Shown here piece by piece: positions 1 through 9,653 of a stretch of 27,428 bases of DNA; within the stretch, counting starts at the first letter, position 1, and every line of letters starts with the position of its first letter. The stretch lies in the IMG/VR virus record IMGVR_UViG_2802429253_000015. One strand, written 5' to 3'. The position numbers and the translations under genes are program-made. The notes under the pieces were generated by a model that had not been told where the DNA came from, searched no databases, and saw only the letters and a program-made list of their open reading frames with translations. Source of the DNA: a virus (taxonomy: Duplodnaviria > Heunggongvirae > Uroviricota > Caudoviricetes).

Positions 1-677
<677 letters not shown>

Positions 678-1520: not shown

Positions 1521-1739
1521 ATGACTACATTATTTAGAAAAGAATATCCTCGAAGAAGTAGGGCTATAGAACTCTTGTTTCTCATTCTATTTATCGTGTT
1601 GCTGATACCGATATCCCCGTTAATCCTGGTCTGGGTAATTGGAAAAATAATTGAACCAGTTATTGAGTTATATACCGATGTGACATGGGAATCATTCAGG
1701 GCGCTACACAATAAATTTAATCCGTATAAGGAAAACTGA
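1521..1739 (+). CDS. Small membrane protein (72 aa), hypothetical
   Basis: Central hydrophobic stretch (LLFLILFIVLLIPISPLILVWVIG). AGGAGG at 1493-1498 is separated from the ATG by a GNRA-loop hairpin (CCGCCC-GAAA-GGGCGG, 1499-1514). Confidence 0.45.
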   Translation: MTTLFRKEYPRRSRAIELLFLILFIVLLIPISPLILVWVIGKIIEPVIELYTDVTWESFRALHNKFNPYKEN

Positions 1740-1740
1740 T

Positions 1741-2274
1741 ATGACCACCATTACCAAAGAACGCGCGGAGATTAAATCATTCATCACAGGCTTCCTGAGC
1801 GACCCGGCGCACGATAACCAATCCTCAGACAGCCTGCTTGCCAATGTGTTTCGTATCGCACTGGCTTCGCTGGAAGCAGAGCCAGTGGCGTGGAAGGCAA
1901 CCTTCACGCAAATTGACAATAAATATAATACGTTCACCACTATGTATTCTGACAAAGCAGAAGTCGAACGCTGGGTGCGACTGCATGAAATAGGTGACTT
2001 TCGGGCAGAAATAACACCGCTTTACGCAGCGCCGTCAGCGCCGGTAATTCCGGATGGTTGGATAAGCTGTAGTGAGCGGATGCCTGAAAAGAACCAGAAC
2101 GTGCTTATTTCGGTGAATTTCGATAGCTCTCTGGTTGAACCGCTAATATGCTCCGCACGCTATACAGGAAGCACATTCCGGCGAGGAGAAGCAACGATTA
2201 AGCCGGGTAATGGTATTGAGCAAGCAACTCACTGGATGCCGCTACCAGAACCGCCGCAGGAGGTGAATCAATGA
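1741..2274 (+). CDS. DUF551-like phage protein (177 aa)
   Basis: C-terminal ...ATHWMPLPEPP motif, which I recall as characteristic of the DUF551 family common in lambdoid nin regions; ATG 2 nt after the upstream stop. Confidence 0.65.
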   Translation: MTTITKERAEIKSFITGFLSDPAHDNQSSDSLLANVFRIALASLEAEPVAWKATFTQIDNKYNTFTTMYSDKAEVERWVRLHEIGDFRAEITPLYAAPSAPVIPDGWISCSERMPEKNQNVLISVNFDSSLVEPLICSARYTGSTFRRGEATIKPGNGIEQATHWMPLPEPPQEVNQ

Positions 2275-2354
2275 GCTGGCCTGAAGCGTTCACAACGGTA
2301 GGGATTGCAATGGCGGTGGCGCTGGTGGTGTATTCTATTTGCCGCTGGGGGTAA
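2271..2354 (+). CDS. Possible 27-aa small membrane peptide (MSWPEAFTTVGIAMAVALVVYSICRWG)
   Basis: ATGA overlap with the stop of the DUF551 gene; single hydrophobic helix. Too short for the ORF track. Confidence 0.3.
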   Translation: MSWPEAFTTVGIAMAVALVVYSICRWG

Positions 2355-2515
2355 GGTATTAAAAAACGCCCCGCACACAGACGTTGAGCGCCTGAGATGT
2401 GGGGATAGGGAGTTAGTTTAATAGTTATACAACAATACCTGATTTTATATTGAAGCAAGAAATAGGTTGCTACATATTGAATCATGCGCGTGTACGTCAA
2501 ATATGGGAGGTCATC

Positions 2516-2605
2516 GTGCTGGTTCTGAAATGTGCGCTGGCTATTGCGGCAGTAATGGCAATTTATTGTCTTGTTATCGTTCTTATGAATCACCTCTCTG
2601 ATTGA
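2516..2605 (+). CDS. Possible 29-aa hydrophobic peptide (VLVLKCALAIAAVMAIYCLVIVLMNHLSD), GTG start
   Basis: Shine-Dalgarno GGGAGG (2505-2510) 5 nt before GTG 2516; sequence is almost entirely one transmembrane helix. Too short for the ORF track. Confidence 0.3.
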   Translation: MLVLKCALAIAAVMAIYCLVIVLMNHLSD

Positions 2606-2815
2606 TTTTATATTGGCGAGGTGACGTGAGTTAAGTAGAATTGCTGCGGGTGCTTGAGGCTATCTGCCTCGGGCATGAACACCAACGGCAGATAGAGAAA
2701 AGCCCCAGTTAACATTACGCGTCCTGCAAGACGCTTAATATTAATCTGAGGCCATATCTATGCGACACATAGAGATTAGCCTCTTACGGACCGAAAGGTC
2801 AAGGAGAAGCAGGCT

Positions 2816-2971
2816 ATGAAGCAGCAAAAGGTGATGTTAATCGCCCTGATCGTCATCTGTTTAACCGTCATAGTGACGGCACTGGTAACGAGGAAAGACC
2901 TCTGCGAGGTACGAATCCGAACCGGCCAGACGGAGGTCGCTGTCTTCACAGCTTACGAACCTGAGGAGTAA
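2816..2971 (+). CDS. hokD: Hok/Gef-family type I toxin (51 aa), HokD/RelF-like
   Basis: Translation MKQQKVMLIALIVICLTVIVTALVTRKDLCEVRIRTGQTEVAVFTAYEPEE matches the Hok family essentially residue for residue as I recall HokD. AAGGAGAAG lies just upstream of the ATG. A 19-codon leader ORF (2760-2819) ends in ATGA overlapping the hok start. Confidence 0.85.
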   Translation: MKQQKVMLIALIVICLTVIVTALVTRKDLCEVRIRTGQTEVAVFTAYEPEE

Positions 2972-3199: not shown

Positions 3200-3448
3200 A
3201 TGAGCAAAAAAGAGAAGTTGAGGTGGCGTCTGAATCAGCTTCCAAAGGATTTTACATGGGATGAACTCGTGACGTTGCTTGGGCATTATGGTTTCGAAAT
3301 GCTTACCGGTTCAGGCTCAAGAAGGAAGTTTACCAATGCTAATGGAAGGCTTGTGGCTTTTCATTGCCCACATCCTGGCAATATTGTTAAAGGATATGTG
3401 CTTAAAGAAGTGAAAAATCTTTTGGATGAGATTGATAGTTATGAGTAA
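3200..3448 (+). CDS. hicA: HicA-family toxin (mRNA interferase), 82 aa
   Basis: Motifs ...LTGSGSRRKF... and ...VAFHCPHPGNIVKGYVLKEV... fit the HicA/YcfA pattern (G-S-H...HxP...G...K). The toxin gene precedes the antitoxin, as is characteristic of hicAB loci. Confidence 0.7.
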   Translation: MSKKEKLRWRLNQLPKDFTWDELVTLLGHYGFEMLTGSGSRRKFTNANGRLVAFHCPHPGNIVKGYVLKEVKNLLDEIDSYE

Positions 3449-3917
3449 TGTGCTGAGTTATAAAGGTTATTTTGGCAGCATTGAGGTTTCACTTGAAGAT
3501 AACATACTTCATGGGAAAATTCAGTGCGTAAACGATGTTGTAACCTACGAAGCGGAAACACTGGATGGGTTAAGGGCGGCGTTTGAAGAAGCTGTTACAG
3601 ATTATCTCGACACATGCAAGCAGTTAGGGAAATCTCCTGATAAACCAATGAGTGGTACTTTTAACATCAGAATTGGTCGCGATCTTCATAAGAAAGCGTT
3701 TTTGGCTGCAATGGCGGATAAGACGACGCTTAATGATTATGTGCGTAAAGCTATCGAAGAAAAGATTGCTGACAAAAAAGAAGTTCATTCTCATTCGGAA
3801 AGCGAAGAAACGACAGATACATTCGTTTGGGAAAAAGCATTCTCTTTTGGTTATGTCATTTCCCCTTCAGCAAGAACAAAAAAGAAAGAGGCTGGTGAGC
3901 GATGGATGCGTCACTGA
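3441..3917 (+). CDS. hicB: HicB-family antitoxin with C-terminal ribbon-helix-helix-like segment, 158 aa
   Basis: N-terminal SYKGYFGSIEVSLEDNILHGKI... is the typical HicB-like fold signature, followed by ...SGTFNIRIGRDLHKKAFLAAMADKTTLNDYVRKAIEEK (RHH-like). ATG 3441 overlaps the hicA stop (ATGAGTAA). An alternative start at 3426 is possible. Confidence 0.7.
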   Translation: MSNVLSYKGYFGSIEVSLEDNILHGKIQCVNDVVTYEAETLDGLRAAFEEAVTDYLDTCKQLGKSPDKPMSGTFNIRIGRDLHKKAFLAAMADKTTLNDYVRKAIEEKIADKKEVHSHSESEETTDTFVWEKAFSFGYVISPSARTKKKEAGERWMRH

Positions 3918-8856: not shown

Positions 8857-9156
8857 AAAAATTCCTTAATACTGATAACTTGGCGCACTATACACACGTT
8901 CCTGAAGAAAGCTATAGTTTTTTGATGGGGTTGAAGATGGCTGGATGTCTAAAATAAACATTGCTTCATATGTTCAACTATGAGTTAATGATTGCGTCGG
9001 TTTGAAGAACAGACGATATACGAAGTAGTTTACTAAAGCAGTTCTCATTTCAGGTGTTATTCACTTATTCCTTCTTTGAGTCTCTCCAATTAAGTACGAA
9101 GTCGTTTCTGTTATACAAACCATTTATGCCGAAAGGCTCAAGTTAAGGAATGTAGA

Positions 9157-9372
9157 ATGTCAAATAAAATGACTGGTTTAGTAAAATGGTTTAACGCTGA
9201 TAAAGGTTTTGGCTTTATTTCTCCTGTTGATGGTAGTAAAGATGTGTTTGTGCATTTTTCTGCGATTCAGAATGATAATTATCGAACCTTATTTGAAGGT
9301 CAAAAGGTTACCTTCTCTGTAGAGAGTGGTGCTAAAGGTCCTGCAGCAGCAAATGTCATCATTAATGATTAA
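9157..9372 (+). CDS. cspB: CspA-family cold-shock protein paralog, CspB/CspI-like (71 aa)
   Basis: Translation [38 protein letters not shown]... carries the canonical RNP1/RNP2 motifs (KGFGFI, VFVHF). Divergent from the cspF-like gene across a ~300-bp intergenic region, as in Qin. Confidence 0.85.
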
Positions 9373-9653
9373 AATTCATAGTTTGTCTGTATACGATAAC
9401 GAAGAAGGCTGATGCCTGAGTGGAGATACAGACAGAGTGGCGAATATTGGATCTCTTTAATAAAGAGTAAGGAGGTCCAATACATGAAACAATGGCCAGC
9501 ATATTTGGTAATAACTTAATCAGGAAAAGTATGCTAACCATTGTGGTGAAGTGCAGGTTTGCTGCATGAATAGTTTTACAGCAGAAGCTAACTGCTGGCA
9601 TAGCAAAACAAAGTGCGTAAGTGGATGACTCTCACAAAAAGCACCACAATATT

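What the first reader, a model, noticed from the sequence alone, without database searches (positions are those of the whole stretch)
2271..2605. Two tiny hydrophobic ORFs between the DUF551 gene and hok
A 27-codon ORF (2271-2354) is coupled to the DUF551 stop. A 29-codon ORF (2516-2605) has GGGAGG 5 nt before its GTG start. Each encodes essentially one transmembrane helix. Peptides of this kind next to a hok gene could be additional type I toxin-like or membrane-modulating peptides, or remnants of the relBE/hok neighbourhood. Neither would be picked up by standard ORF callers.
Basis: seen in the sequence. Interest (0 to 1): 0.45.

Follow-up and report, generated by a model that had tools for sequence, protein, structure and literature searches.

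The report
Two small prophage membrane-protein genes beside hok
Both tiny ORFs look like real, conserved genes for one-helix membrane peptides carried by E. coli prophages, overlooked by standard annotation, but nothing shows that they are extra Hok-type toxins or leftovers of other genes.

Summary
Both ORFs exist exactly as described. They are the only two ORFs in the window that combine a strong Shine-Dalgarno (SD) site, 20-40 codons and a transmembrane-grade hydrophobic stretch. Random sequence gives 0.05 such ORFs per 27 kb.

ORF1 (2271-2354, 27 aa) is a mobile cistron:
- It occurs in 1726 of 5426 complete E. coli genomes and is always 27 codons.
- It is ATGA-coupled to at least five unrelated upstream genes.
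- pN/pS is 0.13-0.5 in frame and mostly 0.8-3 in the other frames (the antisense frame that shares its wobble positions also scores low).

ORF2 (2516-2605, 29 aa) is a self-contained cassette:
- Its promoter hexamers (TTGAAG, 17 nt, CATATT) are conserved around unrelated spacers, followed by SD, GTG and 29 codons.
- It occurs in 1903 of 5426 genomes.
- Its BL21 homologue has published Ribo-RET initiation and footprint signals and belongs to a catalogued microprotein cluster.

Neither ORF matches Hok or any Pfam, NCBIfam, PHROG or PADLOC family. No conserved antisense RNA was found. Each ORF occurs without hok, and hok occurs without either. RefSeq annotates neither.

Verdict: these are genuine but uncharacterised small membrane proteins of the prophage accessory pool. 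ORF2 almost always travels fused to one hok promoter variant. Their function is unknown, and the finding is of modest interest.

The parts
1741..2274 (+). DUF551 gene. In this window it is the upstream partner to which ORF1 is translationally coupled.
   Evidence: Pfam PF04448, 9.1e-23. Its stop TGA at 2272-2274 overlaps the ORF1 ATG.
2258..2263 (+). Shine-Dalgarno AGGAGG for ORF1, inside the 3' end of DUF551 and 7 nt before the ATG.
   Evidence: Read directly from the sequence. A GGAGG-type SD is kept across at least five unrelated upstream gene ends.
2271..2354 (+). ORF1: a 27-aa single-pass membrane peptide, MSWPEAFTTVGIAMAVALVVYSICRWG. It is the terminal, translationally coupled cistron.
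   Evidence: - 116 of the 122 copies with enough flank have the ATGA overlap with an upstream ORF of at least 40 codons.
- pN/pS is 0.13-0.23 in frame and 1.3-2.2 in four of the five other frames. The fifth, the antisense frame that shares wobble positions, scores 0.20-0.28.
- Homologues at 75-78% nucleotide identity keep 27 codons and the YSICRWG end, with pN/pS 0.17-0.5.
- It is present in 1726 of 5426 complete E. coli genomes.
2361..2404 (-). GC-rich hairpin followed by U6 on the minus strand. It is terminator-like for leftward transcription and marks the end of the ORF1 module.
   Evidence: Terminator scan. The minus-strand fold is -22 kcal/mol with z = -2.2. Other ORF1 copies carry different GC hairpins or terminators at the same place.
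2450..2478 (+). Inferred sigma-70 promoter of ORF2: -35 TTGAAG (2450-2455), a 17-nt spacer, and -10 CATATT (2473-2478). The start site is predicted at about 2484-2486.
   Evidence: The hexamers and their spacing are conserved in three locus families whose spacers are unrelated. The -35 is TTGAAG/T in about 90 of 100 loci and CATATT is present in all of them. This is an inference from conservation. The site matches the consensus at only 8 of 12 positions and was not reported by the consensus scan.
2505..2510 (+). Shine-Dalgarno GGGAGG for ORF2, 5 nt before the GTG.
   Evidence: An SD (CAGGAGG, GGGAGG or CAGGAG) is kept in all variants although the surrounding leader diverges.
2516..2605 (+). 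ORF2: a 29-aa single-pass membrane peptide, (M)LVLKCALAIAAVMAIYCLVIVLMNHLSD, with a GTG start.
   Evidence: - 100 intact copies (26 unique sequences) carry no stop or indel.
- pN/pS is 0.13-0.17 for codons 2-19 and 0.85 for codons 20-29. Third-position diversity is 0.118, against 0.043 and 0.049 at positions 1 and 2.
- It is present in 1903 of 5426 genomes.
- The BL21 homologue (26 of 29 residues identical) has Ribo-RET TIS count 13 and RPF count 38, and belongs to the Entero67K predicted-coding cluster Escherichia_98807 (PMC11188072 Table S4).
2613..2641 (+). hok promoter (TTGGCG, 17 nt, TAGAAT). Its -35 belongs to the ORF2 module. The block shared by all hok loci starts only at GAGTTAAGTAGAAT.
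   Evidence: Promoter scan. Comparison of ORF1-type and ORF2-type hok upstream regions.
2648..2818 (+). hok mRNA leader with the mok/sok region. This is context, not part of the two ORFs.
   Evidence: Rfam RF01794, 103.3 bits, E = 1.1e-22.
2816..2971 (+). hok toxin gene (51 aa). This is context.
   Evidence: Pfam HOK_GEF, 2.7e-23. PHROG 251, 2.6e-32.

Best explanation
Both ORFs are genuine, translated genes for small single-pass inner-membrane peptides. They belong to the accessory gene pool of Escherichia/Shigella lambdoid and P1-like prophages. They are two unrelated, independently mobile cassettes that happen to lie in tandem in front of a hok/sok module.

ORF1:
- It is a 27-codon cistron with no promoter of its own.
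- It is expressed by termination-reinitiation coupling (ATGA plus an SD) from whichever gene lies upstream.
- It usually closes its operon: a hairpin, a hok promoter or the next operon gene follows its stop.
- Its charges (E5 near the N terminus, R25 near the C terminus) predict an N-out/C-in topology.

ORF2:
- It is a self-contained unit: a sigma-70 promoter (TTGAAG, 17 nt, CATATT), a leader of about 30 nt, a strong SD, a GTG start and 29 codons.
- It can be expressed from a silent or decayed prophage.
- No terminator separates it from hok, so its transcript probably runs on into the hok locus.
- K5 and the acidic tail predict an N-in/C-out topology.

Shown here or in the cited paper: the anatomy, conservation at the protein level, modular behaviour, lack of family membership, and ribosome-profiling signal for an ORF2 homologue.

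Inferred: membrane insertion and topology, promoter activity, read-through into hok, and the biochemical role. The most likely role is to bind and tune a host or phage membrane protein, as other bacterial small membrane proteins do, rather than to kill the cell.
For: - Anatomy.
- Beyond chance: (2 observed against 0.05 expected).
- ORF1 coupling: the ATGA overlap is present in 116 of 122 copies, behind at least five unrelated genes.
- ORF1 integrity: 27 codons are kept from 99% down to 75% nucleotide identity.
- ORF1 coding signal: pN/pS is 0.13-0.5 in frame and mostly 0.8-3 off frame; the antisense frame that shares wobble positions is the exception.
- ORF1 module boundary: a variety of hairpins, or the hok promoter, follow directly after the stop.
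- ORF2 integrity: the frame, GTG start and SD are intact in all 100 full copies.
- ORF2 coding signal: codons 2-19 give pN/pS 0.13-0.17, with an excess of third-position diversity.
- ORF2 promoter: the hexamers are conserved around unrelated spacers.
- ORF2 independence: it persists as the first gene of a decayed prophage remnant next to chromosomal genes and in a lineage where hok has been replaced.
- ORF2 translation: initiation and footprints in BL21, and membership of a predicted-coding microprotein cluster (PMC11188072).
- Hydrophobicity.
- Prevalence.
Against: - There is no direct translation evidence for ORF1. It was absent from the held supplements of three EHEC Ribo-seq papers and of the microproteome paper.
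- ORF2's published signal is weak (13 initiation reads) and comes from a homologue, not this allele.
- ORF2 codons 20-29 show no purifying selection (pN/pS 0.85-1.0).
- The sampled copies are closely related and not phylogenetically independent, so the pN/pS contrasts overstate the significance.
- Part of the ORF2 sample was fetched with a protein-degenerate pattern.
- ORF2 is deleted in about a third (47 of 147) of loci that carry the same hok promoter variant, so it is dispensable.
- The ORF2 promoter is inferred from conservation only.
- Both families are confined to Escherichia/Shigella.
- No function was demonstrated.
Confidence: 0.72

Rival explanations
1. One or both peptides, ORF2 especially, are additional type I toxins. 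Their RNA antitoxin is unrecognised, for example a minus-strand RNA of about 240 nt running from a promoter at 2634-2605 to the terminator at 2361-2404 and fully antisense to ORF2.
For: - Both are short, very hydrophobic peptides next to a type I toxin gene.
- A minus-strand promoter-like site, TTAACT-18-TAAAAT, lies at 2634-2605 in the window and in L005.
- A minus-strand hairpin with a U6 run lies at 2361-2404.
Against: - The putative -10 reads TGAAAT, losing the key A2, in about half of the variants. The site is absent in BL21.
- The minus-strand terminator exists only in the window-type family. L005 has none, and in BL21 the corresponding region is a coding gene.
- Promoter-like hits in the window region are no more frequent than in shuffles (3 found, 2.8 expected).
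- There is no Rfam hit other than sok itself.
- There is no match to Hok or to any toxin model in Pfam or NCBIfam.
- Sok shows no special complementarity to either translation start region.
- The ORF2 leader is short and its SD is not locked in structure.
- The homologue is translated in growing BL21.
Confidence: 0.12
2. ORF2, and ORF1 where it abuts hok, acts mainly in cis. Transcription and translation running up to or through the hok promoter would set hok/sok expression by promoter occlusion, 5'-extended hok mRNA or protection from Rho. The peptide sequence would then matter little.
For: - Both ORFs end 7-8 nt before the -35 of the hok promoter in their respective arrangements, and each module supplies that -35.
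- No terminator lies between ORF2 and hok.
- About 92% of ORF2 copies sit directly in front of hok.
- The C-terminal third of ORF2 is unconstrained.
Against: - Amino-acid-level constraint on ORF2 codons 2-19 and on all of ORF1 is not expected for a purely cis-acting ORF.
- ORF1 commonly occurs with no hok nearby.
- hok loci with ORF2 deleted retain the promoter.
Confidence: 0.1
3. The ORFs are not functional genes. They would be chance or decaying frames conserved by hitch-hiking with hok and neighbouring genes, or remnants of larger genes such as the relBE neighbourhood.
For: - RefSeq annotates neither.
- They have a narrow taxonomic range.
- ORF2 is often deleted and its ribosome signal is weak.
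Against: - There is an in-frame excess of synonymous change.
- Length is invariant, with almost no stops or indels, across dozens of unique sequences and down to 75% identity.
- SD and start codons are kept while the flanks diverge.
- Recombination breakpoints fall at the ORF edges.
- There is no similarity to any larger protein family.
Confidence: 0.06

Closest known systems
Entero67K microprotein cluster Escherichia_98807 (Fesenko et al., 'The Cryptic Bacterial Microproteome', PMC11188072)
   Same: ORF2 is this family. The BL21 member, VLVLKCTLAIVAVMAIYCLVIVLMDHLSD, is identical at 26 of 29 residues. It also starts at GTG and also sits in front of hokD.
   Different: The paper lists it only in a table row (predicted coding, TIS 13, RPF 38, dN/dS 0.46). 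It does not describe the promoter, the tie to hok or any function. ORF1 was not found in the held supplements.
Hok/Gef type I toxins (Pfam PF01848) with mok/sok control
   Same: They are small single-pass membrane peptides, physically adjacent here, and ORF2 shares the N-in charge pattern.
   Different: - There is no HMM match.
- They are about half the length and lack the periplasmic domain.
- There is no overlapping mok-like frame, no sok-like RNA and no long folded leader.
Short chromosomal type I toxins (Ibs, ShoB, TisB, DinQ, ZorO, Ldr); the comparison is from general knowledge
   Same: They are hydrophobic peptides of 19-35 aa whose overproduction typically damages the membrane.
   Different: - No antisense or divergent sRNA is conserved here.
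- There is no match to NCBIfam toxin models.
- Translation signals are exposed rather than sequestered.
- ORF1 is simply coupled to an upstream gene.
Regulatory small inner-membrane proteins of E. coli (AcrZ, MgtS, CydX, KdpF and similar); from general knowledge and review PMC12648545
   Same: They are of similar size, have a single helix and are missed by annotation. The likely mode of action, binding a larger membrane protein, is also shared.
   Different: There is no sequence relationship (KdpF only at E = 0.23). These ORFs are prophage-borne and mobile, and their partner is unknown.
Prophage morons (autonomous promoter-gene-terminator cassettes such as lambda bor and lom); from general knowledge
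   Same: ORF2 has its own promoter. It is expressed from a cryptic prophage (BL21) and is gained and lost as a unit between conserved phage genes.
   Different: It has no terminator of its own and is fused to the hok promoter. ORF1 has no promoter and is not moron-like.

Membership tests
Hok/Gef toxin family (PF01848) | Significant match to the HOK_GEF profile | tested here: not met
   Neither ORF gave a PF01848 hit at E up to 10 (HMMER's filters drop most matches above about 0.1), while the neighbouring hok scored 2.7e-23. Pairwise scores against Hok were no better than shuffles.
Hok/Gef toxin family (PF01848) | About 50 aa, with a periplasmic C-terminal domain after the helix, an overlapping mok frame, a folded leader and a Sok antisense RNA | tested here: not met
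   The ORFs are 27 and 29 aa and end just after the helix. The only RF01794 match above threshold is at 2648-2818.
Type I toxin-antitoxin system (generic) | Small hydrophobic membrane peptide | tested here: met
   Hydrophobic windows score 2.11 and 2.92.
Type I toxin-antitoxin system (generic) | Cognate antisense or partly complementary small RNA, conserved together with the toxin gene | tested here: inconclusive
   A minus-strand promoter-like site and a terminator exist in this window, but they are not conserved across ORF2 families. There is no Rfam family. No RNA-seq data were available.
Type I toxin-antitoxin system (generic) | Toxicity on expression, with translation normally repressed | not testable with these tools
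   Only indirect evidence is available: the SD is not strongly paired and the homologue is translated in growing BL21.
Translationally coupled terminal cistron (ORF1) | Start codon overlapping the upstream stop, with an SD inside the upstream gene, conserved across contexts | tested here: met
   The ATGA overlap is present in 116 of 122 copies, behind at least five unrelated genes, and GGAGG is kept.
Moron-type autonomous cassette (ORF2) | Own promoter | tested here: met
   TTGAAG/T, 17 nt, CATATT is conserved around unrelated spacers. The cassette is the first gene of a prophage remnant. Promoter activity itself was not measured.
Moron-type autonomous cassette (ORF2) | Own terminator downstream | tested here: not met
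   No credible terminator lies between 2605 and the hok promoter.
Entero67K cluster Escherichia_98807 | Sequence identity to the cluster member and the same genomic setting | tested here: met
   26 of 29 residues are identical to the BL21 entry, which also lies in front of hokD.
Remnant of relBE or another larger gene | Similarity to a larger protein family, or a decayed or variable frame | tested here: not met
   There are no family hits. Length is invariant. Annotated features under 1903 genome matches were none or DUF977, and never relE. RelB and RelE sequences were not compared directly.

The most novel reading that the evidence does not exclude
The small peptides may be functional partners of prophage hok/sok rather than neighbours. 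ORF2 would be made from a transcript that runs into hok, and ORF1 would do the same in the alternative arrangement. The peptide could modulate Hok in the membrane, as an immunity or potentiator peptide, or act as a second toxin held in check by read-through antisense transcription ending at the 2361-2404 terminator. Many prophage hok loci would then be three-component systems.
Probability: 0.1. Interest if true: 0.6.

Novelty: new member of a known kind. Interest (0 to 1): 0.3.

Why it matters
Roughly a third of complete E. coli genomes carry each of these genes, yet RefSeq annotates neither, so they are a concrete example of the missing small-membrane-protein annotation in prophages. ORF2 has already been flagged by a large-scale microproteome survey. 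This analysis adds its promoter, its cassette structure and its near-obligate position in front of one hok promoter variant. ORF1 appears not to have been described: a mobile 27-codon cistron that re-couples to whatever gene precedes it. If either peptide modulates Hok, membrane potential or phage-host interplay, it would be relevant to prophage maintenance and to Stx-phage biology. As things stand, they are ordinary uncharacterised accessory genes.

Tried and rejected
I replaced them with degenerate DNA pattern scans and with a 42-aa extended version of ORF2.
- A full-text search for the peptide strings found no paper.
- Supplements of three EHEC Ribo-seq papers hold neither peptide. The UPEC small-protein preprint has no supplements held.
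- The phrog_4612 hit for ORF1 (E = 0.014-0.02) was not reproduced by other family members and is treated as noise.
- The longer 51-, 48-, 42- and 34-aa versions of ORF2 annotated by some submitters were rejected. Their starts are not conserved, and the TTG at 2450 is the conserved -35 hexamer.
- ORF1, ORF2 and Hok are not detectably related. Alignment scores fall within the shuffles.
- Sok-like RNA pairing to either start region is no better than shuffles.
- The weak minus-strand RF01794 hit at 2561-2705 (17 bits, E = 0.29) was dismissed.
- An ORF1 homologue between yfdS and yfdT in K-12 CPS-53 was sought and not found.
- PADLOC gave no hits.
- The plus-strand 'terminator' inside ORF2 (2540-2559, 3 GC pairs) is judged spurious.
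Full report
**Setting**

The window is an early/nin-type region of an E. coli lambdoid prophage. Its features, in order, are:
- a truncated IS3-family transposase (1-654, rve domains);
- two small genes of unknown function;
- DUF4014 (1521-1739) and DUF551 (1741-2274);
- the two ORFs in question;
- a hok/sok module, with the hok leader at 2648-2818 (Rfam RF01794, 103 bits) and hok at 2816-2971 (Pfam PF01848);
- a HicA/HicB pair (3200-3917) and a DUF968 gene.

**Observation**

- ORF1: the ATG at 2271 overlaps the DUF551 stop (ATGA), with AGGAGG 7 nt upstream.
- ORF2: the GTG at 2516 is preceded by GGGAGG at a 5-nt spacing.
- Each peptide is dominated by one hydrophobic stretch. The best 17-residue Kyte-Doolittle windows score 2.11 and 2.92.

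I scanned the whole window on both strands for 20-40-codon ORFs with an SD core at the right spacing and a hydrophobic window of at least 2.0. The scan returned these two ORFs and nothing else. Random first-order Markov sequences of the same composition averaged 0.05 hits.

**ORF1 is a conserved, mobile, translationally coupled cistron**

- A blastn search finds it in 1726 of 5426 complete E. coli genomes. There are 3298 places, up to seven per genome, and 163 are on plasmids, which include P1-like phage-plasmids.
- It is also present in Stx phages of the 933W type.
- In 120 IMG/VR loci fetched with a degenerate pattern, plus the annotated loci, there were about 50-60 distinct nucleotide versions. 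Nearly all are 27 open codons.
- In 116 of the 122 copies with enough flank, the ATG overlaps the TGA of an upstream ORF of at least 40 codons, with a GGAGG-type SD.
- The upstream genes belong to at least five unrelated types: DUF551 (ending PPQEVNQ), a family ending SVEDILR, a 131-aa protein ending EQKVNQ, an 87-aa protein, and a dATP/dGTP pyrophosphohydrolase.
- Homology between contexts starts about 15 nt before the ATG and stops at the stop codon.
- Downstream there are three arrangements. The hok promoter and leader may follow (leader 41 nt after the stop, the commonest case). One of several different GC-rich hairpins or terminators may follow. In integrase-proximal operons, the next gene (DUF4222) follows 4-5 nt later.
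- I restricted the codon analysis to codons not fixed by my search pattern. There, mean pairwise pN/pS is 0.13-0.23 in the ORF frame and 1.3-2.2 in the other frames. The antisense frame that shares wobble positions is the exception.
- Homologues at only 75-78% nucleotide identity keep 27 codons. They also keep W3-P4-[ED]-A, G11 and the [YF]S[IL][CF]RWG end. Examples are MSWPDAIVTLGMVFAVAFVVYSICRWG, MNWPEAFTAVGVAIAVAFILYSLFRWG and the P1-like MSWPEAFTTVGIVMAAALGLYSICRWW. Their pS is 0.4-0.65 and their pN is 0.08-0.25.

This is the signature of a protein-coding gene. No ribosome-profiling record for ORF1 was found.

**ORF2 is a self-contained cassette**

- It occurs in 1903 of 5426 complete E. 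coli genomes, with nothing annotated by PGAP under the matches.
- It also occurs in phages such as Tritos, mEp460 and HannyBb.
- Protein-database relatives are all from E. coli or E. albertii.
- To avoid selecting on the peptide, I anchored a scan on the hok-promoter variant that follows ORF2. Pooled with the earlier loci, this gave 147 places. In 100 of them ORF2 was full length, as 26 unique sequences with no stop, no indel, and the GTG start and SD always present. In 47 it was truncated by recombination. Of those, 44 keep only the last 21 nt and 3 have a junction in mid-ORF.
- Among intact copies, pN/pS is 0.13 for codons 2-8 and 0.17 for codons 9-19, against 0.7-1.9 in most other frames. 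It is 0.85 for codons 20-29.
- Nucleotide diversity is 0.043, 0.049 and 0.118 at codon positions 1, 2 and 3. It rises to 0.19-0.44 in the upstream DNA.
- Upstream, three locus families share TTGAAG/T, exactly 17 nt, then CATATT at a fixed distance from the GTG. Their spacer sequences are unrelated: cactgacgagacagcct, caagaaataggttgcta and taacgagcacgaagaca. I read this as a sigma-70 promoter (window 2450-2478).
- This reading also disposes of the longer 34-51-aa ORFs that some submitters annotated, because the TTG at 2450 is the -35 hexamer.
- In a widespread decayed prophage remnant, ORF2 is the first surviving gene next to a chromosomal MFS transporter gene. It must therefore rely on its own promoter there.

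Published evidence comes from Fesenko et al. (PMC11188072, Table S4). They list the BL21 homologue VLVLKCTLAIVAVMAIYCLVIVLMDHLSD, which is identical to ORF2 at 26 of 29 residues:
- location NC_012971.2 1591437-1591524, minus strand;
- retapamulin TIS count 13 and RPF count 38, with 90% coverage;
- predicted-coding set Entero67K, cluster Escherichia_98807, 389 members;
- dN/dS 0.46.

In BL21 that ORF also lies just in front of hokD, and it overlaps the end of a DUF977 gene by 40 nt.

**Relation to hok**

The block shared by all these hok loci begins only at GAGTTAAGTAGAAT, inside the promoter spacer. The -35 element is supplied by whichever module lies upstream: TTGCGG after ORF1, or TTGGCG after ORF2. 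In the window both modules are present in tandem. They are separated by a segment (2355 to about 2449) found in only about two dozen complete genomes. That segment carries a hairpin with a U6 run on the minus strand (2361-2404).

About 92% of ORF2 copies sit directly in front of hok. One lineage has other cargo instead. Most hok loci lack ORF2. Many ORF1 copies have no hok within 2 kb. The association is therefore strong for ORF2, but neither element requires the other.

No terminator separates ORF2 from the hok promoter. ORF2 transcripts probably read into hok. This is an inference.

**What they are not**

- Neither peptide matches Hok/Gef or any other model in Pfam, NCBIfam, PHROGs or PADLOC. 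The only hits are noise-level.
- ORF1, ORF2 and Hok do not align better than shuffled sequences.
- For a type I toxin reading, I looked for an antisense RNA. A minus-strand promoter-like site (TTAACT-18-TAAAAT, 2634-2605) and the minus-strand terminator could delimit an RNA of about 240 nt antisense to ORF2.
- That reading is weak. The -10 is TGAAAT in about half of the variants. The site is missing in BL21. The terminator is confined to the window-type family. Promoter-like hits in the window region are at the shuffle expectation.
- Rfam finds nothing but sok. Sok has no special complementarity to either start region. The ORF2 leader does not sequester its SD.
- The 'remnant' idea fails because both frames are intact and length-invariant, and both are bounded by recombination joints.

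**Mechanism (best reading, about 0.7)**

There are two unrelated small single-pass inner-membrane proteins.
- ORF1 is made in step with whichever gene precedes it, normally during early or lytic transcription. It closes that operon.
- ORF2 is made from its own promoter, including from silent or decayed prophages.
- The charge distribution predicts N-out/C-in for ORF1 and N-in/C-out for ORF2.

Their targets are unknown. By analogy with other bacterial small membrane proteins, they probably bind and tune a larger membrane protein. A weak membrane-perturbing or Hok-modulating role is not excluded.

**Caveats**

- The sequence samples are closely related prophages.
- Part of the sample was retrieved with protein-degenerate patterns. 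I excluded those codons for ORF1 and used an independent anchor for ORF2.
- Promoter activity, membrane insertion and function are all inferred.

**Novelty and verdict**

- ORF2 is already catalogued as an uncharacterised microprotein, and a few GenBank records call it 'membrane protein'.
- ORF1 exists only as scattered 'hypothetical' or 'bacteriophage protein' entries.
- Both are new, uncharacterised members of a familiar class, so the interest is modest.

Noticed in passing
window 2613-2650, compared with L001, L002 and L007: The sequence shared by all these hok loci starts inside the hok promoter spacer, at GAGTTAAGTAGAAT. The -35 hexamer is supplied by whichever upstream module is present: TTGCGG after ORF1, or TTGGCG after ORF2. 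Different hok copies may therefore have different promoter strengths.
   Followed up: partly
window 2361-2404 (minus strand): A GC-rich hairpin followed by U6 on the minus strand lies between ORF1 and the ORF2 promoter. Its right arm is better preserved in related loci such as L122. It could stop leftward read-through from the hok/sok side. The transcript it terminates is unknown.
   Followed up: partly
window 3200-3917: A HicA toxin (3200-3448) and a HicB antitoxin (about 3441-3917) lie directly after hok/sok, so two toxin-antitoxin modules are stacked here. In related prophages this slot holds Doc, RelE/ParE or other cargo.
   Followed up: partly
window 1-654: A truncated IS3-family transposase (rve integrase core domains) abuts the prophage genes at the left edge of the window. 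This suggests that an IS insertion or deletion removed the upstream part of the prophage.
   Followed up: no
window 8996-9388: There is an Rfam cspA thermoregulator match (155 bits). This indicates a prophage-borne cold-shock protein gene with its 5' UTR thermosensor.
   Followed up: no
IMG/VR loci such as L244 and L279 (44 loci); also L272: In about a third of loci with the ORF2-type hok promoter, ORF2 is cut by recombination. Only its last 21 nt (ATGGATCACCTTTCTGATTGA) remain. They are preceded by a new AAGGAG sequence, which creates a 6-codon mini-ORF, MDHLSD.
   Followed up: partly
L303 (NZ_JPLE01000323.1, a 431-nt contig of a Xanthomonas pisi assembly): The contig carries the Stx-phage-type ORF1 followed by a hok leader that is near-identical to the E. 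coli sequence. This is almost certainly E. coli or phage contamination of that assembly.
   Followed up: no
L299 (BL21(DE3), NC_012971.2 1591437-1591524): In BL21 the ORF2 start and the first 40 nt of its coding sequence overlap the 3' end of the annotated DUF977 gene in another frame. The ORF2 promoter hexamers lie inside that gene.
   Followed up: no
window 1521-1739: The DUF4014 protein (72 aa), just upstream of DUF551, also contains a long hydrophobic stretch (LLFLILFIVLLIPISPLILVWVIG). This short region therefore encodes four small membrane proteins in a row: DUF4014, ORF1, ORF2 and Hok.
   Followed up: no
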